Shown: piece after piece, positions 3,377 through 35,989 of the stretch
Numbering within the stretch: position 1 is the stretch's first letter
Layout: each line of letters begins with the position of its first letter
Source: a virus
Lineage: Duplodnaviria > Heunggongvirae > Uroviricota > Caudoviricetes
DNA: 41,518 bases
Direction: 5' to 3' (one strand)
IMG/VR virus record: IMGVR_UViG_2802429248_000002
Program-made: the position numbers and the translations under genes
The notes under the pieces: generated by a model
The model's database searches: none
Told to the model about the DNA's origin: nothing
What the model saw: only the letters and a program-made list of their open reading frames with translations

Positions 3377-6133
3377 TTAGCTACTTTCAAGCATTGCAAG
3401 ACGTGATTCTATTTTTTCGATTCTTCTACGCAAATAAGCTGACTCAAGCCATAAACACTGGTCAGTACGGATACCCCACCTATTTCCAGCCTTGCAAACC
3501 AGAGTTCGCTCTTCTGTTTCGTATTCTTCTTCCATCTCAATTTCGACGCCATCCACAACTTTAGTGATCATCCTTACCGCCATCACTGGCGCGTATTTAT
3601 CATCCCATTCATCGTAACAGAGAAGGCCAAATCTGGTTCCATCAATCCCATGCGCGAGGAAAGTGTCTCTCACTTGTTGTGCTATAACACCAAAATGCCA
3701 GCGGGCACCATCTCCCTTTTCCCTGACGGCATCAAGCCAGCGAAAAGCTACAATCCTGATATCTCCCCATGCATCCAGAATTGCATCACCTTCATAACCA
3801 CGAGACATATACAAGCTGAGCTCACTTGTACTAATCGGTTCACTTTTTTCTCTACCATCTGATGTGTTTATCGAACCGTTCGCAGAATAAACCTGTGCCC
3901 ATCTAAATGATGGTGCACCAAGAGATTTGCTGTTATCAATAATTGGTGAAAAATTACCTTTAATAGCAATATTTCCAGAGTCGCCGAATATATTAATAAC
4001 TGCAGAGTCATCACCATGGTTTTTTACGCTTAAGTTTCTTGATGAAATATTTATATCTTTGTTATATCCACTAACATTAATCCATCTTTTACCATCAATG
4101 TGATACCCGTAAATATTTCCGTTTGATTGTTCGTCAGGTGACTCTCTAAGAACAATAGCATCTACTCCAGACGACCATTGTATTTTTGTATCTGTAGGCC
4201 TCCAGTTCTTTATAATGAACGAACCATCAGTAAACTCCGTTTTTATTTGTCTATTGTCTACAAATGCGTCTCTTGGTTTAAACTCACTTGTGTTAACGCT
4301 GCTCTGAAGATCAGAAGCAAAAAATCTAAGATTTCCTGTATAACCCTTAGTCTCGGTCAGGTTATACGCAATCATAATTCCATTTTCAAACTCAGATGAT
4401 GTTATTTTAACATCACGGCAATCACCAAAAATGCAATTTCCTTTATCAAATGTTGTTTGAGCTTTGAATTTATCAAACCTTAAATTACGAACAGGGAAAC
4501 CATCAACCTCTAATGCAAAGGATGCAGGAAGGCCAAAGTATTCTGATGGCTTACCTGATGTATGATCAAGAGTAGTGGCTACTGTATTCTCAAAAACAGT
4601 CCCGCTAAAATTATTACCAATTGACGGAAACCTGATTACACTTATTGTACCTTGTATTTCAGGAGAAATACCAGATAGTGTGATGTTAGCTCCATCAAAT
4701 GATGCATCTGAATACGTATATACTGATTCACTGCCAGCAATTTTAAACTGTTTAACTGAAGTTATTCTCATCGACTTTTTATGTTTAAATGTCACTGAGC
4801 TTTCAGTATTACTTACAAGATCAATCTGAGGGCTATTCCTTATCGCGATCCCTGACTGGACATAAACGTTATTAAAGTGCGTTTTTTCAGGATTTCCCTT
4901 CATTGAAAGGCTCCCGTCATTTTCTGTCAGTAGTAGTCCTTTTACCCTCCAATAGCCGACAATCTGTACGTTATCAATAACTGAATCACAGCTATCGTAT
5001 ACATGCAACCCTATATCCCAGTCATCACCCAATGAATAAGAATCAGGGTTATTGTATCCTTCAATACCATTTTTACTTACCATTATTCTCAGGTTGCGTA
5101 ACTGTGATGCCCTGTTGATACTAACAGCTACGCTCATGGCTTTTGGTGTAGCAGGAGTAACACCTACAGAATCTTCATTTGTAAACTCAGTGAACTTACA
5201 AGATATCCCTTCAACAATTTTAACTGGTCTTTCATTAGAGATGTTAAAAAAATATTTGTTTTTTTCTCCATCACCAGTAAATACAAGATGGGTTCCTTTA
5301 CTCCAACTTTTTAATAATCTTTCAGGCGCTGGTCTATATGTATCCCAATAATCAATGCCATCACCAATTAAAGACACTCCAGGAGGCACATCTATGTTCT
5401 TAGAAATCATCCATTTACCTGCAGGTATTCTAACGACACTTGCACCAGAATTTATCGCATTAATTAACCATTCAGACGCATCAACTTCAAAATTTAATGC
5501 AGCATATCTTTGCTCAAACGGAACAAAATCAAGAGCGTTAACGTTATCCCGCATCTTATCCTGGAACGTTCGGTATACTGCTCCAGAACCATACTGAATA
5601 AACCAACCAAAACCACCAACAACTCCGGCGATTGCAGCATCAACATAATTGCGCATTGATCGATTATTTACAGCATCCTGCTCAAGTGATGGATCTGCAA
5701 GGTTAGAAATTTTGTTTTGCTTTGCATCGTAATATTTTGCAAGCAAAGATGGTTTCATCAATGCACGTCTGAACCATCCAAAACATTGCTGGATCAGCAT
5801 CGTCAGATAGTCAAAGGCATCTTCATGCACCTCGGGGAAAAATTTTCCCTGATTACGAAGATCAGTCTCCTGCACCACATCAAGCACACGATCTATCGTA
5901 ATTCGCCATCCAGCAGCAAGCGGCGACGGAAGAACAACAGAACCGCCACTATAAGTGCCCGCCCCTGTTACCGTATAACCGGTATCCAGAACCAATTCTG
6001 TTACGTTCCCGTTCAGGTCAGACACCTGAACAACCAGGTCGGATTTTTTGAAAATACGGAAGGTATACGGAAATGATGTCGTAGCTCCGTTACCTGTGTA
6101 TTCGTTGTGGTCAACTTCGGTTGAGACCGTCAT
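3377..6133 (-). CDS. Tailspike protein with C-terminal intramolecular-chaperone-like domain
   Basis: 918 aa. N-terminus MTVSTEVDHNEYTGNG..TSFPYTFRIFKKSDLVV resembles the conserved particle-binding head of epsilon15/phiV10-type tailspikes (memory). Central region is Asn/Ser/Gly-rich as in beta-helix depolymerases. C-terminal ~150 aa (..TSDGREK..) resembles the self-cleaving chaperone domain (peptidase S74-like) of endosialidase-type tailspikes. Confidence 0.8.
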   Translation of the reverse strand: MTVSTEVDHNEYTGNGATTSFPYTFRIFKKSDLVVQVSDLNGNVTELVLDTGYTVTGAGTYSGGSVVLPSPLAAGWRITIDRVLDVVQETDLRNQGKFFPEVHEDAFDYLTMLIQQCFGWFRRALMKPSLLAKYYDAKQNKISNLADPSLEQDAVNNRSMRNYVDAAIAGVVGGFGWFIQYGSGAVYRTFQDKMRDNVNALDFVPFEQRYAALNFEVDASEWLINAINSGASVVRIPAGKWMISKNIDVPPGVSLIGDGIDYWDTYRPAPERLLKSWSKGTHLVFTGDGEKNKYFFNISNERPVKIVEGISCKFTEFTNEDSVGVTPATPKAMSVAVSINRASQLRNLRIMVSKNGIEGYNNPDSYSLGDDWDIGLHVYDSCDSVIDNVQIVGYWRVKGLLLTENDGSLSMKGNPEKTHFNNVYVQSGIAIRNSPQIDLVSNTESSVTFKHKKSMRITSVKQFKIAGSESVYTYSDASFDGANITLSGISPEIQGTISVIRFPSIGNNFSGTVFENTVATTLDHTSGKPSEYFGLPASFALEVDGFPVRNLRFDKFKAQTTFDKGNCIFGDCRDVKITSSEFENGIMIAYNLTETKGYTGNLRFFASDLQSSVNTSEFKPRDAFVDNRQIKTEFTDGSFIIKNWRPTDTKIQWSSGVDAIVLRESPDEQSNGNIYGYHIDGKRWINVSGYNKDINISSRNLSVKNHGDDSAVINIFGDSGNIAIKGNFSPIIDNSKSLGAPSFRWAQVYSANGSINTSDGREKSEPISTSELSLYMSRGYEGDAILDAWGDIRIVAFRWLDAVREKGDGARWHFGVIAQQVRDTFLAHGIDGTRFGLLCYDEWDDKYAPVMAVRMITKVVDGVEIEMEEEYETEERTLVCKAGNRWGIRTDQCLWLESAYLRRRIEKIESRLAMLESS

Positions 6134-6238
6134 GTTAAATCTCCAGATAGTCGCAGCACCCGTTGCGCCGCATATCTGGTTATTCTATTACCTGAAAAAC
6201 CACATATGGATAGAAAGACTGTAAATACGAACAGATAT

Positions 6239-6253
6239 TACCTTTCAGGTGAT
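6239..6253. promoter_or_regulatory. Operator-like palindrome TTACCTTTCAGGTGA (imperfect member of the TTACC-N5-GGTAA family)
   Basis: Lies in the divergent region between the tailspike start (6133) and the LexA-box gene (6329). Confidence 0.45.
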
Positions 6254-6291
6254 TCGCAAAACGTGCTGGATAGCAAACAAATTATTTGATA

Positions 6292-6307
6292 CTGTATAAA
6301 TATACAG
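6292..6307. promoter_or_regulatory. LexA box (SOS box) CTGTATAAATATACAG
   Basis: Perfect CTGT-N8-ACAG with AT-rich spacer, flanked TA..TT (TACTGTATAAATATACAGTT, 6290-6309). Sits 22 bp upstream of ATG 6329 and overlaps a TTGATA -35-like hexamer (6286-6291). Confidence 0.75.
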
Positions 6308-6328
6308 TTATTGCATGGAGAAGATAAG

Positions 6329-6586
6329 ATGCAGCAGTATCACTATCCACTGGAAGACGGATTTACCGAAAGGATTCACACGCCGGGAGGCGTCAGGTCA
6401 CTGGTGGAGGGATCGCACTTGATGAAATTACTCCGGGATCTCGATAAGGATGGATTTAATGTCGATGGCCCACTTGCCGAACTGACTGCACTGATTAACT
6501 ACGTCACCAGCTCACAGATGTCTATGCGGGATCTGCAAACACATCTCGACTATTGTGCCGAACAATTACGAAAACAAACCCGGTAA
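6329..6586 (+). CDS. Small SOS-regulated protein, antirepressor C-terminal-domain-like (Tum/Ant-like candidate)
   Basis: ATG 6329 with GGAG 8 nt upstream; 85 aa. About half its residues match the C-terminal ~80 aa of the Bro-N protein at 7732-8418 (shared LxxDG.DV.G..AELT...........RD.QTH). Confidence 0.6.
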   Translation: MQQYHYPLEDGFTERIHTPGGVRSLVEGSHLMKLLRDLDKDGFNVDGPLAELTALINYVTSSQMSMRDLQTHLDYCAEQLRKQTR

Positions 6587-6608
6587 ATTTAAAGGCCGCA
6601 AGAGCGGC

Positions 6609-7337
6609 CTATCGTTTCGCTTTGTGCTCATCCCAGCACGTTTTGCACCATGCCATTAAGCCGTCCGCATTTTGATTATTAGGGTAAAAGCTGGTTCGTT
6701 TTCTGCGGACATTACAAATTGGGCACCACTTCATATGGCGTGTATTCTTTGGGCCATCGAGACACCTTGCACACCATTTAGTCAATCCATCTGGATTTTT
6801 TGACGATTTCCTGAATTTTTCATATGGAAGGTTTATTCTGCATCGCAAGCACTGCTTGCTACCACTTGAAACTCTGTTAGCTGATTCTTCTTTTGGCGGC
6901 GATACAGAAGGTATTCTTGCTGGCTCTGATATTGCCTGAGGTGCTTTTTTAGATGACTGAGACGATATGTCATCACCAGGGAATCTTCCATGATATGCCG
7001 GACGCGTTGACACTCCAGGTGGAATCTCAGCTGTAAACGGCTTTGGCTGAATCAGTTGCCTCTCTTTTGCTAACTCCTGCTGTTTATAATATGTCTGGAT
7101 TACCGCACTATCATAAGCAGGAGGTGCGGAAATATTAGGCGCATTACCTCCAGTTTTTTGAAACTGAGTAGAGGTGTGTTCTATCACCTGTGTACGATTA
7201 ATCGTTATCTCCCCATCTTCGGTCTTTATCGTTTTGTTATGATTAACGACCGTACGATCAGAGATCTTAGTCTTGTTCTGGTTGATAACGTAAATAATCA
7301 CCGCAACCACACCAACAACTATCCAGAAAACTTCCAT
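6609..7337 (-). CDS. Membrane-anchored protein with tandem Cys-rich (zinc-ribbon-like) C-terminal repeats, unknown function
   Basis: 242 aa. N-terminal TM helix (EVFWIVVGVVAVIIYVI), Pro/Ser-rich linker, then two repeats of CxxC..(F/Y)..DGL..WCxxC. Operator palindrome about 20 bp upstream of the start codon. Confidence 0.55.
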   Translation of the reverse strand: MEVFWIVVGVVAVIIYVINQNKTKISDRTVVNHNKTIKTEDGEITINRTQVIEHTSTQFQKTGGNAPNISAPPAYDSAVIQTYYKQQELAKERQLIQPKPFTAEIPPGVSTRPAYHGRFPGDDISSQSSKKAPQAISEPARIPSVSPPKEESANRVSSGSKQCLRCRINLPYEKFRKSSKNPDGLTKWCARCLDGPKNTRHMKWCPICNVRRKRTSFYPNNQNADGLMAWCKTCWDEHKAKR

Positions 7338-7357
7338 TGCTTTTCCTCACAATAACA

Positions 7358-7465
7358 TTACCTTAAAGGTAATATCTTGCTTTCAGGTGATCAAGCGTTA
7401 AACGCAATCAACCAAATACGGTTGATTTTAATGTTTCTTCGCGCTTATCATTACCTTTACGGTAA
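7358..7465. promoter_or_regulatory. Two operator palindromes (TTACCTTAAAGGTAA 7358-7372; TTACCTTTACGGTAA 7451-7465) in the divergent region between 6609-7337 and 7732-8418
   Basis: On the minus strand TTGATC-17 bp-TACCTT precedes the first palindrome, giving a promoter whose -10 is overlapped by the operator. A TTGATT (7422-7427)-17 bp-TTATCA (7445-7450) plus-strand promoter abuts the second palindrome. Confidence 0.5.
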
Positions 7466-7558
7466 ATTTACATAGCACTCCTCTTGTGCCATAGTAATCG
7501 GGCACTGGCAAAATCCAGTGCCGGGATTGGCGTCCCGGATTACTACAGAGGCACATAT

Positions 7559-7578
7559 GCCGCATAAGCGGTTTTTTT
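7559..7578 (+). terminator. Short intrinsic terminator/attenuator-like hairpin in the leader of the Bro-N gene
   Basis: Stem GCCGC (7559-7563), loop ATAA, GCGG, then seven T (7572-7578); preceded by an 8-bp stem hairpin GGCACTGG-CAAAAT-CCAGTGCC (7501-7522). Confidence 0.4.
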
Positions 7579-7731
7579 ATGTGTAAAGCGCACCTATTCT
7601 ATGGTGGGCTGTGTGGGGGCACCGAAAGGTGCGCCGGGTCCTTTGTAGCCGGTTACGCCAACCCTGCACAGTTCACCACCAACCGATTGGCGTCGGTAGT
7701 GGTGATTAACCTAACTACAAAGGTGATCACT

Positions 7732-8418
7732 ATGACTGCTAACGTAACCCCATCTGTTTTTCATTTTGAATCAGAAGCAACCATTCGAGCCATTGTTATT
7801 GATGGAAATCCTTGGTTTGTTGCCAAAGACGTTATTAAAGCTCTTCAACTGACAAACCCCACTATGTCAATAAAATCTCTTGATGATGATGAAAGGGCTA
7901 AATTTAACTTAGGCCGTCAAGGCGAAACCAATATTATCAACGAGTCAGGCCTCTACACACTGATCCTCCGCTGCCGCGATGCGGTGACACCAGGCACTAT
8001 CCCATACCGCTTTCGTAAATGGGTTACAGGTGAGGTTCTTCCTCAGATCCGCCGCACCGGAAGTTACATTAAAAACTCGCTCCCGCAAGAAGAACGCATA
8101 AAGATGGTTGCCGACCAGGTAGCCAACGCCACAGCATCAGCAGTGATGCAGGCAATGAAGATAGAGAACAAAACCTACAGCGCCCCACTAAAGCCCGGCT
8201 ACCGCAGTCTGATTCACTCGCCGTCTGGTGTTCTCGGCCTGACGGAGAACTCACTGCTGATGAATCTGCTGAACCAGTTACAGGACGACGGGCACGACGT
8301 ATCGGGCGCGGCGGCGGAGTTGACCACCATGTTCTGCTACATCGTCGGTGTGAACAAATGCCTGCGTGATATCCAGACGCACGCGGAGTACATCAACGAC
8401 AAAGCAGGGTTCTTCTGA
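7732..8418 (+). CDS. Bro-N domain protein with antirepressor-like C-terminal domain
   Basis: Start taken at MTANVT (ATG 7732, aaaggtga upstream); the longer track ORF begins in a structured leader. N-terminus (FHFESEATIRAIVIDGNPWFVAKDVIKALQLTNP) matches the Bro-N signature; C-terminus is paralogous to the 6329-6586 protein. Confidence 0.7.
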   Translation: MTANVTPSVFHFESEATIRAIVIDGNPWFVAKDVIKALQLTNPTMSIKSLDDDERAKFNLGRQGETNIINESGLYTLILRCRDAVTPGTIPYRFRKWVTGEVLPQIRRTGSYIKNSLPQEERIKMVADQVANATASAVMQAMKIENKTYSAPLKPGYRSLIHSPSGVLGLTENSLLMNLLNQLQDDGHDVSGAAAELTTMFCYIVGVNKCLRDIQTHAEYINDKAGFF

Positions 8419-24952: not shown

Positions 24953-24989
24953 TTGACATTTAACGCACAAATTATTACCTTTCAGGTAA
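24953..24989 (+). promoter_or_regulatory. Sigma70-like promoter (TTGACA-17-TACCTT) overlapped by operator palindrome TTACCTTTCAGGTAA
   Basis: -35 TTGACA 24953-24958, 17-bp spacer, -10 TACCTT 24976-24981; palindrome 24975-24989 covers the -10 and start site. Points rightward into the leader and tRNA-Arg. Confidence 0.5.
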
Positions 24990-25311: not shown

Positions 25312-25388
25312 GTGGCATTAGCTCAGTTGGACAGAGCAACCGCCTTCTAAGCGGTTGGTCGCAGGTTCGAATCCTGCATGCCACGCCA
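25312..25388 (+). tRNA. tRNA-Arg (anticodon UCU), phage-encoded
   Basis: Cloverleaf readable by eye: acceptor GTGGCAT/ATGCCAC, D-arm GCTC-AGTTGGACA-GAGC, anticodon stem ACCGC/GCGGT with loop CTTCTAA, variable TGGTC, T-arm GCAGG-TTCGAAT-CCTGC, discriminator G, encoded CCA. Confidence 0.9.
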
Positions 25389-28885: not shown

Positions 28886-29101
28886 TTCCTGCTCCTGCTT
28901 ATCCAGCACCAGTTCAATTTTGCGCTCACCGGCGGCGGACTGCCGAGCGCGCTGCGCGGCTTTGCGTTCTGCGGGGGATTTAGCCACGAATCGCACTCCA
29001 CGCCAGATTGATTAATGACTCCCAGGTAATATAAACCCGGATACCAGCAGCCAGGCCGAAACCAATCACCATGGCATAAAGCAGAGCGTTGCACTTGTTC
29101 A

Positions 29102-35019: not shown

Positions 35020-35250
35020 TCATGAGTAGAAGAAGTATGCCAGTTCTGCTTTTGAGCGCAGCCATTGTCTTGATTTACAGGCTTTAAAAAGCCCATCCAT
35101 CAATACCTTACCTGGCATTTTGCGCTTACCTGTTAAGTGAGTCTGGATATAGTGACTCGTCGTTCCGGCTTCCTGTGCGAAGGCTTCACGCTCATCCGGA
35201 GTAAGTGCAAGCCAGTGCTTTTTGAAATCGAAATGTCCGTTATCGCTCAT
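35020..35250 (-). CDS. Cro-like HTH DNA-binding protein (first gene of the leftward early operon)
   Basis: 76 aa; HTH-like segment FAQEAGTTSHYIQTHLTGKR; divergent from the repressor-like gene across an operator-rich 150-bp region. Confidence 0.45.
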   Translation of the reverse strand: MSDNGHFDFKKHWLALTPDEREAFAQEAGTTSHYIQTHLTGKRKMPGKVLMDGLFKACKSRQWLRSKAELAYFFYS

Positions 35251-35286: not shown

Positions 35287-35349
35287 TCACCTATAAGGTA
35301 ACAAAAATCAAGGATAGTTACCCATGAGGTGCATTTACCTGTTGGGTAA
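35287..35349. promoter_or_regulatory. Immunity-region operator cluster: three sites (TCACCTATAAGGTAA 35287-35301; TTACCCATGAGGTGC 35318-35332; TTACCTGTTGGGTAA 35335-35349)
   Basis: Clustered palindromes in the divergent Cro-like/repressor intergenic region, analogous in layout to lambdoid tripartite operators. Confidence 0.55.
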
Positions 35350-35404: not shown

Positions 35405-35989
35405 ATGAAAAGTATCCAGGACGTCCGCAGGCAAAATCTCAACGACTTGATCGACCGTGAATTCAATGGTGTTCAGACGCGGATGGCTGAAAAACTTGGA
35501 ACTCAGGCAAATCTGGTAAACCGCTGGGCTCTTGGCAAGAAGGTTATCGGCGACCAGGTTGCGCGAAAAATTGAAGCTGCCGCCAATAAACCCCGTAACT
35601 GGCTTGATATCGATCGCTCGCTTTCTCAGGAAGGTTTTCAGCCTGTCGGCCCGAGTGATATAGGTCAGCTGGCTGCTCACAACCTGGAACGCTGGATGAG
35701 CGAAAGCCGCGACCTTTCAACGCAGGGAAAACTACACCGCGCATCCGGCGTCGCCCAGGTGACAATCAGCCGCCTGTTAAACAATGAGGTCAGCGTTTCC
35801 ATTTCCACCCTGGAGAATGTTGCATCCGCATTCGGGCGTCATGGCTATGAATTACTGATTCACCCGCACGACCCTGCGACTATCAACTATGACCGCTCGC
35901 GCTACGCATTGTTACCCGAAACCGAGAAAGCAAAGATCGAAAGTTACATTGAATTTGTCATCAACCAGAACGAAAAAAACAAACAATAA
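35405..35989 (+). CDS. XRE-family repressor-like protein with two HTH motifs and no S24 autocleavage domain (putative immunity repressor)
   Basis: 194 aa; HTH 1 GVQTRMAEKLGTQANLVNRW, HTH 2 ASGVAQVTISRLLNNEVSVS; no GDSM/Ser-Lys peptidase signature; flanked by operator clusters on both sides; terminator immediately downstream. Confidence 0.55.
   Translation: MKSIQDVRRQNLNDLIDREFNGVQTRMAEKLGTQANLVNRWALGKKVIGDQVARKIEAAANKPRNWLDIDRSLSQEGFQPVGPSDIGQLAAHNLERWMSESRDLSTQGKLHRASGVAQVTISRLLNNEVSVSISTLENVASAFGRHGYELLIHPHDPATINYDRSRYALLPETEKAKIESYIEFVINQNEKNKQ

What the first reader, a model, noticed from the sequence alone, without database searches (positions are those of the whole stretch)
6286..6586. 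Perfect LexA box in the promoter of a small antirepressor-like gene, with a repressor lacking an autocleavage domain
CTGTATAAATATACAG (6292-6307) matches the enterobacterial SOS box and overlaps a -35-like TTGATA directly upstream of an 85-aa ORF with a good RBS. The repressor-like protein (35405-35989) has two HTH motifs and no recognisable S24 Ser-Lys peptidase domain, so RecA-stimulated self-cleavage is unlikely. Together these predict SOS induction through a LexA-derepressed antirepressor, as in coliphage 186 Tum and the Gifsy prophages.
Basis: partly seen in the sequence, partly recalled or inferred. Interest (0 to 1): 0.7.

Follow-up and report, generated by a model that had tools for sequence, protein, structure and literature searches.

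The report
Known SOS-controlled phage antirepressor switch
This is the E. coli copy of a prophage wake-up switch already worked out in Salmonella phage SPC32H: DNA damage removes the host LexA protein from the promoter of a small protein (Ant), which then pulls the phage repressor off its DNA. The feature is real and correctly read, but not new.

Summary
CTGTATAAATATACAG (6292-6307) is by far the best LexA site in the window: 27.8 bits against a maximum of 20.5 in 200 shuffles. It sits at the same position in 11 related phages. It lies 22 bp upstream of an intact 85-aa gene (6329-6586).

The window is an epsilon15/phiV10-type (Uetakevirus) E. coli prophage. The 85-aa protein is about 87% identical to the Ant antirepressor of Salmonella phage SPC32H (PDB 5D50 chain E, E=1e-46). 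The 194-aa protein (35405-35989) is a full-length homologue of SPC32H Rep (5D50 chain A, E=4e-42). It has two HTH regions and no S24 peptidase domain.

SPC32H has a LexA box at the same spot, and its clear-plaque sibling SPC32N differs there by one base in the CAG half-site. Phage 186 Tum and the Gifsy antirepressors are analogues; Tum was tested here and is not homologous.

Side findings:
- The repressor's operator palindrome (TTACC-N5-GGTAA) occurs at 15 places against 0.8 expected, including one 54 bp upstream of the LexA box.
- A second, accessory antirepressor carries an Ant-like C-terminal domain fused to BRO-N. It sits behind isrK and C4 small RNAs.

Novelty: already known. Interest: low.

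The parts
6290..6309 (.). LexA binding site (SOS box), 20-mer TACTGTATAAATATACAGTT; the 16-mer core is 6292-6307
   Evidence: 27.8 bits, HI about 1.0, best site in the window, above all 200 shuffle maxima; conserved in 11 phages. SPC32N differs from SPC32H by C to A in the right CAG.
6267..6295 (+). Candidate ant promoter (inferred): -35 TGGATA 6267-6272, 17-bp spacer, -10 TACTGT 6290-6295
   Evidence: TGCTGGATAG and TACTGT are conserved blocks in alignment A1. The geometry matches annotated p95 of phage 186, whose -10 is TACTGT inside its LexA site. Not detected by the consensus scan. The transcription start is not mapped here.
6317..6323 (+). Shine-Dalgarno sequence GGAGAAG of ant
   Evidence: Sequence. 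GGAG is invariant in A1.
6329..6586 (+). ant: 85-aa antirepressor, orthologue of SPC32H Ant
   Evidence: PDB 5D50_E 'Anti-repressor protein', E=1.4e-46 over residues 2-84. 86.7% identical to the annotated ant of SPC32H. PHROG 450, E=7e-48.
6593..6610 (.). GC-rich hairpin between the convergent ant (+) and 242-aa gene (-); likely terminator for both
   Evidence: epsilon15 annotates a terminator at the equivalent place.
6238..6252 (.). Rep-operator-type palindrome TTACCTTTCAGGTGA in the tailspike-ant intergenic region, centre 54.5 bp upstream of the LexA-box centre. Most likely the operator of the divergent tailspike promoter (inferred).
   Evidence: 15 sites against 0.82 expected. Conserved in A1. 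The homologous epsilon15 site is annotated 'repressor / lysogeny'. Present in SPC32H.
35405..35989 (+). rep: 194-aa prophage repressor, homologue of SPC32H Rep; no S24 autocleavage domain
   Evidence: PDB 5D50_A 'Repressor', E=4e-42 over residues 1-190. Pfam shows HTH_3 only and no S24. 100% identical to the phiV10 'putative transcriptional repressor' and 41.8% to SPC32H rep.
35287..35349 (.). O_R-like operator cluster between the cro-like gene and rep: sites at 35287, 35318 and 35335
   Evidence: Spacing of 31 and 17 bp matches the three SPC32H sites upstream of rep, spaced 30 and 17 bp.
36047..36122 (.). O_L-like operator pair just downstream of rep (36047, 36108)
   Evidence: SPC32H and epsilon15 have sites at the equivalent place.
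35020..35250 (-). cro-like 76-aa regulator, divergent from rep
   Evidence: PHROG 35 'transcriptional repressor', E=9e-13. Position.
7449..7683 (+). Accessory module, control region: Rep operator 7451-7465 abutting promoter TTTACA(7467-7472)/17/CATAGT(7490-7495); isrK-like sRNA 7502-7578; C4-like antisense RNA 7597-7683
   Evidence: Rfam isrK 76.8 bits (gathering 50) and C4 79.5 bits (gathering 45). Promoter. Operators.
7732..8418 (+). Accessory module, gene: 228-aa BRO-N protein whose C-terminus (about residues 147-224) is an Ant-like domain. Probable second antirepressor, not LexA-controlled (inferred).
   Evidence: Pfam Bro-N, E=5e-20. C-terminus matches 5D50_E at E=1.9e-13 and is 41% identical to the small Ant, E=3e-16. 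C4 loop CCUUUGUAG (7640-7648) is complementary to 7715-7723 across the gene's Shine-Dalgarno sequence.

Best explanation
The window is an epsilon15/phiV10-type temperate podophage (Uetakevirus) of E. coli carrying the SPC32H-type lysis-lysogeny switch.

Lysogenic state: Rep (35405-35989) binds TTACC-N5-GGTAA operators around its own gene and in front of several lytic operons, and keeps them off. This step is inferred from site enrichment and placement. Host LexA sits on a near-consensus SOS box (6290-6309) covering the core promoter of the small gene ant (6329-6586). ant lies far from the immunity region, between the tailspike gene and the preceding structural genes, in the opposite orientation.

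Induction: DNA damage activates RecA, LexA cleaves itself, and ant is transcribed. Ant binds Rep by protein-protein contact and releases it from DNA, so the prophage is induced without Rep being cut. In SPC32H an Ant tetramer binds two Rep dimers through Rep's C-terminal tetramerisation domain.

Shown here: the sequence features, their conservation, and the homology of both proteins to the SPC32H pair.

Inferred by orthology: LexA binding, Ant-Rep binding and non-cleavage of Rep in this particular phage.

The very low heterology of the box suggests tight LexA binding, and therefore induction only under strong or sustained SOS signalling. That last point rests on general knowledge of SOS-box hierarchy.
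For: Ant: PDB 5D50_E 'Anti-repressor protein', E=1.4e-46, nearly full length. It is 86.7% identical to the GenBank-annotated ant of SPC32H/SPC32N.

Rep: PDB 5D50_A 'Repressor', E=4e-42 over residues 1-190. There is no S24 domain. The gene is annotated rep in SPC32H.

Synteny: the order tailspike(-), then LexA box and ant(+), then hairpin is the same as in SPC32H.

LexA box: 27.8 bits against a shuffle maximum of 20.5, and the only strong site in the window. It is conserved in 11 phages. SPC32N differs from SPC32H by one base in the CAG half-site. That matches what I recall from the Kim & Ryu 2013 abstract, namely that a single LexA-site mutation makes Ant constitutive.

Held papers:
- Several Salmonella prophages make a LexA-controlled antirepressor that inhibits the repressor by protein-protein contact, citing Kim and Ryu 2013.
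- Rep's C-terminal tetramerisation domain also mediates the Ant interaction.
- The Ant mechanism is cited as a conformational-trapping antirepressor.

Other support:
- The Rep C-terminal segment 156-190 keeps 13 of 35 positions invariant across two Rep clades that are only about 43% identical overall.
- In the phage collection searched, the 35 records with an Ant homologue and the 36 with a full-length Rep homologue list the same phages.
- Uetakevirus phiV10-species prophages in E. coli isolates were induced 21- to 47-fold by a DNA-damaging microcin.
Against: - Nothing was tested experimentally in this phage.
- Rep is only 41.8% identical to SPC32H Rep (37.7% in the C-terminal half).
- No sigma-70 promoter passes the consensus scan at ant, so the promoter hexamers are inferred.
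- A Rep-type operator 54 bp upstream and a second Ant-fold protein (7732-8418) show that the circuit has inputs the simple model does not describe.
Confidence: 0.9

Rival explanations
1. Classical lambda-type induction: Rep is inactivated by RecA-stimulated self-cleavage, and the LexA-controlled small gene is incidental.
For: None found. This is only the general prevalence of the mechanism among temperate phages (introduction of Lemire et al.).
Against: Rep has no Peptidase_S24 match. It is a full-length homologue of SPC32H Rep. A held review places the SPC32H system among those in which the repressor is inhibited by antirepressor contact rather than cleaved.
Confidence: 0.02
2. The small protein is LexA-controlled but its main target is not the resident Rep. 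For example, it could be a trans-acting anti-immunity factor aimed at other prophages, or an SOS modulator. Resident induction would then depend on something else.
For: Ant is far more conserved (about 85% between E. coli and Salmonella phages) than Rep (about 42%). Gifsy antirepressors act in trans on heterologous repressors.
Against: Ant and Rep co-occur in every Uetakevirus record found. The orthologous pair forms a crystallised complex (5D50). Trans action would add to cis action rather than replace it.
Confidence: 0.05
3. Induction is driven mainly by the second, larger antirepressor (BRO-N::Ant-like, 7732-8418) under isrK/C4 RNA control. The LexA-controlled small Ant would be a minor or redundant input.
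For: The large protein carries an Ant-like domain and an elaborate control region.
Against: No LexA site lies near it. Rep operators flank its promoter, so it should be silent until Rep is already inactivated. SPC32H and epsilon15 lack the cassette entirely, and SPC32H still carries the Rep/Ant/LexA elements.
Confidence: 0.04

Closest known systems
Rep/Ant/LexA switch of Salmonella phage SPC32H (Kim & Ryu, J Virol 2013; Kim et al., PNAS 2016; PDB 5D50, 5D4Z)
   Same: Same phage genus. Ant is about 87% identical and full length, and Rep is homologous over its full length with the same two-domain layout and no S24 domain. ant sits in the same place, divergent from the tailspike gene. The LexA box is at the same distance from the start codon. 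The same ATTACC-N5-GGTAAT palindromes flank rep and lie upstream of ant.
   Different: The host is E. coli. Rep belongs to a different clade (42% identity), identical to phiV10's. The LexA box is closer to consensus (HI about 1.0 against about 2.4-3.7). This phage also carries the isrK-C4-BRO-N::Ant-like cassette and a 242-aa gene, both absent from SPC32H.
Coliphage 186 Tum / p95 / CI
   Same: The logic is the same: a LexA box over the -10 of a promoter outside the immunity region drives an antirepressor that blocks a non-cleavable CI. The p95 box CTGTATGTTTATACAG is identical to SPC32H's, and its -10 is TACTGT, as proposed here.
   Different: The proteins are unrelated. Tum is 146 aa with a DinI domain (Pfam E=1.8e-17). 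Ant has no DinI match and BLASTP gives E=0.056. 186 CI has Phage_CI_repr and Phage_CI_C domains, which Rep lacks.
Gifsy-1/-2/-3 antirepressors GfoA/GftA/GfhA (Lemire et al. 2011, PMC3121763)
   Same: Small LexA-controlled antirepressors encoded outside the immunity region. The repressors are not cleaved. Antirepressors can recognise divergent repressors.
   Different: The Gifsy LexA box precedes a dinI homologue. No such gene adjoins ant here: it is alone between its LexA box and a hairpin, and neither neighbouring gene matched DinI. The host phage type also differs (siphophage against podophage). Sequence relatedness to Ant was not tested here. From memory, the SPC32H authors described Ant as structurally distinct from these.
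P1/P7 immI (C4 antisense RNA controlling ant) and the Gifsy-1 isrK-orf45-anrP locus. These are for the accessory module at 7449-8418 only.
   Same: Rfam isrK and C4 both match above their gathering scores, directly upstream of an antirepressor-type gene. The C4 loop is complementary to that gene's ribosome-binding site, which is how C4 is described as working on ant mRNA in P1. isrK followed by an antirepressor-like gene is the Gifsy-1 arrangement.
   Different: Here the antirepressor is a BRO-N protein with a C-terminal SPC32H-Ant-like domain, and Rep-type operators flank the promoter. No icd/orf45-type upstream ORF was examined.

Membership tests
SPC32H-type Rep/Ant/LexA antirepression switch | Small (~86 aa) protein homologous to SPC32H Ant over its whole length | tested here: met
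   5D50_E, E=1.4e-46, query residues 2-84 against chain residues 3-85. 86.7% identity to annotated ant.
SPC32H-type Rep/Ant/LexA antirepression switch | Repressor homologous to SPC32H Rep (N-terminal DNA-binding domain plus C-terminal domain with tetramerisation and Ant-binding segment), lacking an S24 autocleavage domain | tested here: met
   5D50_A, E=4e-42 over residues 1-190, and 5D4Z_A (C-terminal domain), E=4e-20. No S24 in Pfam. 66 invariant positions across 6 Rep variants, including 13 of 35 in residues 156-190.
SPC32H-type Rep/Ant/LexA antirepression switch | LexA box overlapping the ant promoter | tested here: met
   27.8-bit site at 6290-6309, 22 bp before the ATG. Same column as the SPC32H box and the SPC32N mutation in alignment A1. 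The exact promoter hexamers are inferred.
SPC32H-type Rep/Ant/LexA antirepression switch | ant located outside the immunity region, divergent from the tailspike gene | tested here: met
   Window layout compared with SPC32H, epsilon15 and phiV10 annotations.
SPC32H-type Rep/Ant/LexA antirepression switch | LexA binds the box; Ant binds Rep and releases it from DNA; Rep is not cleaved on SOS induction | not testable with these tools
   Needs EMSA or footprinting, pull-down, and a western blot after mitomycin C.
Phage 186 Tum family | Antirepressor with a C-terminal DinI-like domain, homologous to Tum | tested here: not met
   Tum matches Pfam DinI at 1.8e-17. Ant has no DinI match. BLASTP of Ant against Tum gives E=0.056.
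Phage 186 Tum family | LexA box covering the -10 of the antirepressor promoter | tested here: met
   186 p95 -10 (29044-29049) is TACTGT within LexA site 29044-29063. The window has TACTGT at 6290-6295 within its site.
Gifsy GfoA/GftA antirepressors | Sequence homology to GfoA/GftA/FsoA | not tested
   Those protein sequences were not retrieved.
Gifsy GfoA/GftA antirepressors | LexA-controlled unit that begins with a dinI homologue | tested here: not met
   ant is alone between the LexA box and the hairpin at 6593-6610. Neither flanking gene is DinI-like: the upstream neighbour is the 918-aa tailspike gene, and the 242-aa downstream gene gave no DinI match in Pfam or PHROGs.
Lambda CI / LexA-type self-cleaving repressors | C-terminal Peptidase_S24 (Ser-Lys) domain | tested here: not met
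   Pfam scan of Rep at E<=0.01 returns only HTH-type families.
P1 immI-type C4-controlled antirepressor (accessory module) | C4 antisense RNA upstream of ant, with loop complementarity to the ant ribosome-binding site | tested here: met
   RF01695 at 79.5 bits against a gathering score of 45. A 9-nt perfect complement overlaps the Shine-Dalgarno sequence; 25 of 2000 shuffles reach 9 nt anywhere.

The most novel reading that the evidence does not exclude
The phage runs a two-stage induction circuit built from two copies of one Rep-binding fold. Stage one is the stand-alone Ant, gated by LexA, which starts induction. Stage two is a BRO-N::Ant-like fusion (7732-8418) whose promoter is flanked by Rep operators and whose translation is gated by isrK/C4 RNAs. 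It would be released only once Rep begins to fall off DNA, giving positive feedback that makes induction irreversible, or trans-induction of related prophages.

A related point: Ant is about 85% conserved across two Rep clades that are only about 43% identical. Ant may therefore cross-induce heteroimmune Uetakevirus prophages, as the Gifsy antirepressors do.
Probability: 0.3. Interest if true: 0.45.

Novelty: already known. Interest (0 to 1): 0.15.

Why it matters
The mechanism is textbook for this phage genus, so the value is practical rather than conceptual.

- **Annotation gap.** The gene is labelled 'hypothetical protein' in RefSeq E. coli genomes and in most phage records. It has no Pfam or NCBIfam model, and its PHROG is marked 'unknown function'. 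This is despite a solved complex structure of the orthologue.
- **Prevalence.** The locus occurs in 532 of 5,426 complete E. coli genomes. About one E. coli genome in ten therefore carries a prophage predicted to be induced by SOS-triggering agents through this route. That fits the reported induction of phiV10-species prophages by a DNA-damaging microcin.
- **Possible follow-up.** The accessory Ant-fold fusion behind isrK/C4 is the only part that might repay further work.

Tried and rejected
- **Primary SPC32H papers.** I tried to read them by DOI and by PMC id and they are not held. The epsilon15 genome paper is not held either. What I say about their abstracts is from memory. It is corroborated only through held citing papers, GenBank annotation and PDB molecule names.
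- **Sigma-70 consensus scan of 6100-7760.** It found no promoter at ant.
- **Second LexA-like site at 6219-6234.** Rejected as functional evidence: 12.5 bits equals the median best hit of shuffled windows, and the left half-site is absent in phiV10 and TL-2011b.
- **Homology to 186 Tum.** Tested and rejected.
- **LexA control of the BRO-N gene.** No site was found.
- **Is the palindrome upstream of ant an ant regulator?** Considered. In this window and in epsilon15 the same palindrome precedes several lytic operons on the opposite strand to ant. The simpler reading is that it serves the divergent tailspike promoter. This remains unresolved.
- **Large protein-database and metagenome searches.** Not run, because the verdict did not depend on them.

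Full report
**Observation.** The sequence reads ...TTTGATACTGTATAAATATACAGTTATTGCATGGAGAAGATAAGATG... The 16-mer CTGTATAAATATACAG is at 6292-6307, a Shine-Dalgarno sequence GGAGAAG at 6317-6323, and an ATG at 6329 opens an 85-codon frame ending at 6586.

I built a LexA weight matrix from 27 E. coli SOS boxes recalled from the published compilations, so it is approximate. On that matrix the 20-mer 6290-6309 scores 27.8 bits. That is higher than any training site and higher than the best hit in any of 200 shuffled windows (median 12.0, maximum 20.5). The heterology-index-like value is about 1.0. No other site in the 41.5 kb exceeds 12.5 bits.

A second CTGT-N8-ACAG at 6219-6234 is at chance level and is not conserved.

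The claimed repressor (35405-35989, 194 aa) has a Pfam HTH_3 match at residues 106-147, a weaker HTH-type match at residues 21-61, and no Peptidase_S24 match.

**What the window is.** The 600 bp around the site are 96-99% identical to Escherichia phages TL-2011b, phiV10, phiv142-3 and others, and about 77% identical to Salmonella epsilon15-like phages. The same locus is present in 532 of 5,426 complete E. coli genomes, nearly always chromosomal. All named relatives belong to the genus Uetakevirus, the epsilon15-like temperate podophages.

**What the two proteins are.** The 85-aa protein matches PDB 5D50 chain E, 'Anti-repressor protein', at E=1.4e-46 over essentially its whole length. It is 86.7% identical to the gene annotated ant in Salmonella phages SPC32H and SPC32N. 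The 194-aa protein matches 5D50 chain A, 'Repressor', at E=4e-42 over residues 1-190, and 5D4Z (the C-terminal domain alone) at E=4e-20. The corresponding SPC32H gene is annotated rep.

In SPC32H, ant lies in the same place: divergent from the tailspike gene and followed by a hairpin. It has CTGTATGTTTATACAG at the same distance from its start codon.

In an alignment of this intergenic region from 11 phages of E. coli, Salmonella, Enterobacter and Klebsiella, the box is conserved while much of the flanking DNA is not. SPC32N differs from SPC32H by a single C-to-A change in the right CAG half-site.

**What is known about SPC32H.** I could not open the two primary papers. From memory of their abstracts:
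- Kim & Ryu 2013 showed that Rep is not cleaved on SOS induction but is inactivated by Ant. They showed that LexA represses ant, and that a single-base change in the LexA site makes SPC32N constitutively lytic.
- Kim et al. 2016 solved the Rep C-terminal domain and the Rep-Ant hetero-octamer.

Held papers corroborate the essentials:
- A review lists Kim and Ryu 2013 among systems in which SOS-induced antirepressors inhibit the repressor by protein-protein contact.
- Another paper states that Rep binds DNA as a tetramer, and that tetrameric Ant binds two Rep dimers and breaks the tetramer.
- A third states that Rep's C-terminal tetramerisation domain also mediates the Ant interaction.
- A fourth cites Ant as a conformational-trapping antirepressor.

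**Mechanism in this window.** By orthology, LexA occupies 6290-6309 and blocks the ant promoter. SOS-induced LexA self-cleavage lets Ant be made. Ant binds Rep and releases it from its operators, and the prophage is induced without Rep cleavage.

The features and homologies are shown here. LexA binding, Ant-Rep binding and non-cleavage of Rep in this phage are inferred. In support, phiV10-species Uetakevirus prophages in E. coli isolates were reported to be induced 21- to 47-fold by a DNA-damaging microcin.

**Promoter.** It would start transcription inside the Shine-Dalgarno sequence, and it is not conserved in relatives. The conserved block TGCTGGATAG offers TGGATA (6267-6272), 17 bp upstream of TACTGT (6290-6295). 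In phage 186 the annotated p95 -10 is exactly the TACTGT that begins its LexA site. I therefore favour that arrangement. The consensus scan reports no promoter here and the transcription start is unmapped.

**Operators.** TTACC-N5-GGTAA, allowing one mismatch, occurs 15 times against 0.82 expected. The sites are:
- three between the cro-like gene and rep (35287, 35318, 35335), with the same 31/17-bp spacing as the three sites upstream of SPC32H rep;
- two just after rep;
- others in front of operons on the minus strand;
- one at 6238-6252 in the tailspike-ant intergenic region.

The epsilon15 GenBank record already annotates the homologous sites, including the one next to its ant homologue gp19, as predicted repressor-binding sites. 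The site near ant is most simply the operator of the divergent tailspike promoter. Whether it also affects ant is open.

- *Phage 186.* It works the same way and has a LexA box identical to SPC32H's. However, Tum is a DinI-domain protein with no significant similarity to Ant, and 186 CI has domains that Rep lacks.
- *Gifsy.* The Gifsy antirepressors share the logic and the ability to hit divergent repressors, but their LexA box precedes a dinI homologue. The window's ant is instead alone between its LexA box and a hairpin, next to a tailspike gene and a 242-aa gene of unknown function. Sequence relatedness was not tested.

These are analogues. The family this locus belongs to is SPC32H Rep/Ant.

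**Divergence pattern.** Rep here is identical to phiV10's. It is 78% and 76% identical to the two Enterobacter phage repressors, but only 42-44% identical to those of the Klebsiella and Salmonella phages. Ant is 84%, 76%, 64% and 81-85% identical in those same phages. Ant and Rep divergence are therefore uncoupled, which suggests that Ant recognises conserved Rep surfaces. The C-terminal segment 156-190 retains 13 of 35 invariant positions, and the N-terminal domain retains 33 of 75.

**Accessory module.** About 750 bp downstream of ant lies a cassette absent from SPC32H and epsilon15 but present in phiV10, TL-2011b, Tyrion and two Klebsiella phages. It comprises:
- two Rep-type operators (7358, 7451);
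- a promoter whose predicted start coincides with the first base of an Rfam isrK match (7502-7578, 76.8 bits);
- an Rfam C4 antisense RNA match (7597-7683, 79.5 bits);
- a 228-aa BRO-N protein (ATG 7732).

The last ~78 residues of that protein match the whole SPC32H Ant chain (E=1.9e-13) and are 41% identical to the small Ant. The C4 loop CCUUUGUAG is complementary to CUACAAAGG across that gene's Shine-Dalgarno sequence. This is how C4 is described as controlling ant in P1/P7. An isrK followed by an antirepressor-like gene is the Gifsy-1 arrangement. No LexA site lies near it. This looks like a second, Rep- and RNA-gated antirepressor. Its role, whether feedback or trans-induction, is speculative.

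**Verdict.** It is nevertheless an orthologue of a switch that has already been characterised genetically and structurally. Novelty: already known. Interest: 0.15. The practical point is that the gene remains 'hypothetical' in E. coli annotations and has no Pfam, NCBIfam or annotated PHROG family.

Noticed in passing
window 7449-8418: Second antirepressor cassette. A Rep-type operator abuts a promoter, followed by an Rfam isrK match (7502-7578), an Rfam C4 antisense RNA match (7597-7683), and a 228-aa BRO-N protein whose C-terminus is an SPC32H-Ant-like domain. The C4 loop is complementary to the gene's ribosome-binding site. Present in phiV10, TL-2011b, Tyrion and two Klebsiella phages; absent from SPC32H and epsilon15.
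   Followed up: partly
window 6238, 7358, 7451, 24975, 25592, 28530, 28548, 32942, 33004, 34950, 35287, 35335, 36047, 36108: Palindrome TTACC-N5-GGTAA occurs 15 times against 0.8 expected, almost all intergenic and in front of operons, and flanking rep. It is the probable Rep operator. That implies direct repression of many lytic and structural operons by one repressor, as already predicted in the epsilon15 GenBank record. The same half-site is used in SPC32H although the Rep N-terminal domains are only 52% identical.
   Followed up: partly
window 6219-6234: A second CTGT-N8-ACAG (CTGTAAATACGAACAG) lies 73 bp upstream of the real box. It scores at chance level and its left half is absent in phiV10 and TL-2011b. 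It falls where epsilon15 annotates an IHF site.
   Followed up: yes
window 6609-7337 (- strand): 242-aa protein with an N-terminal hydrophobic segment and C-terminal Cys-rich repeats. It gives weak matches to the zinc-ribbon regions of endonuclease VII and Lar-like families, and belongs to PHROG 6762 (unknown function). It sits between ant and the BRO-N cassette. It is present in TL-2011b and some E. coli prophages but absent from the SPC32H, epsilon15 and phiV10 loci.
   Followed up: no
window 25312-25388 (+ strand): tRNA-Arg (anticodon TCT) inside the phage, on the opposite strand to the neighbouring structural genes and next to Rep-type operators at 24975 and 25592.
   Followed up: no
L018 (phage 186) 29044-29063 compared with L001 (SPC32H) about 2456-2475: The LexA 20-mers of 186 p95 (TACTGTATGTTTATACAGTA) and of SPC32H ant (TACTGTATGTTTATACAGTG) are 19/20 identical, although the antirepressor proteins they control are unrelated.
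   Followed up: no
window 6329-6586 and 35405-35989 compared with relatives (alignments A2, A3): Ant and Rep divergence are uncoupled across the genus: Ant is 85% but Rep 42% identical to SPC32H, while Ant is 84% and Rep 78% identical to Tyrion. This suggests independent exchange of the immunity region and a broadly cross-reactive Ant.
   Followed up: partly
window 6329-6586: Annotation gap. The Ant family has a solved structure but no Pfam or NCBIfam model. PHROG 450 is labelled 'unknown function', and RefSeq calls the E. coli protein (WP_001188254.1) hypothetical.
   Followed up: yes
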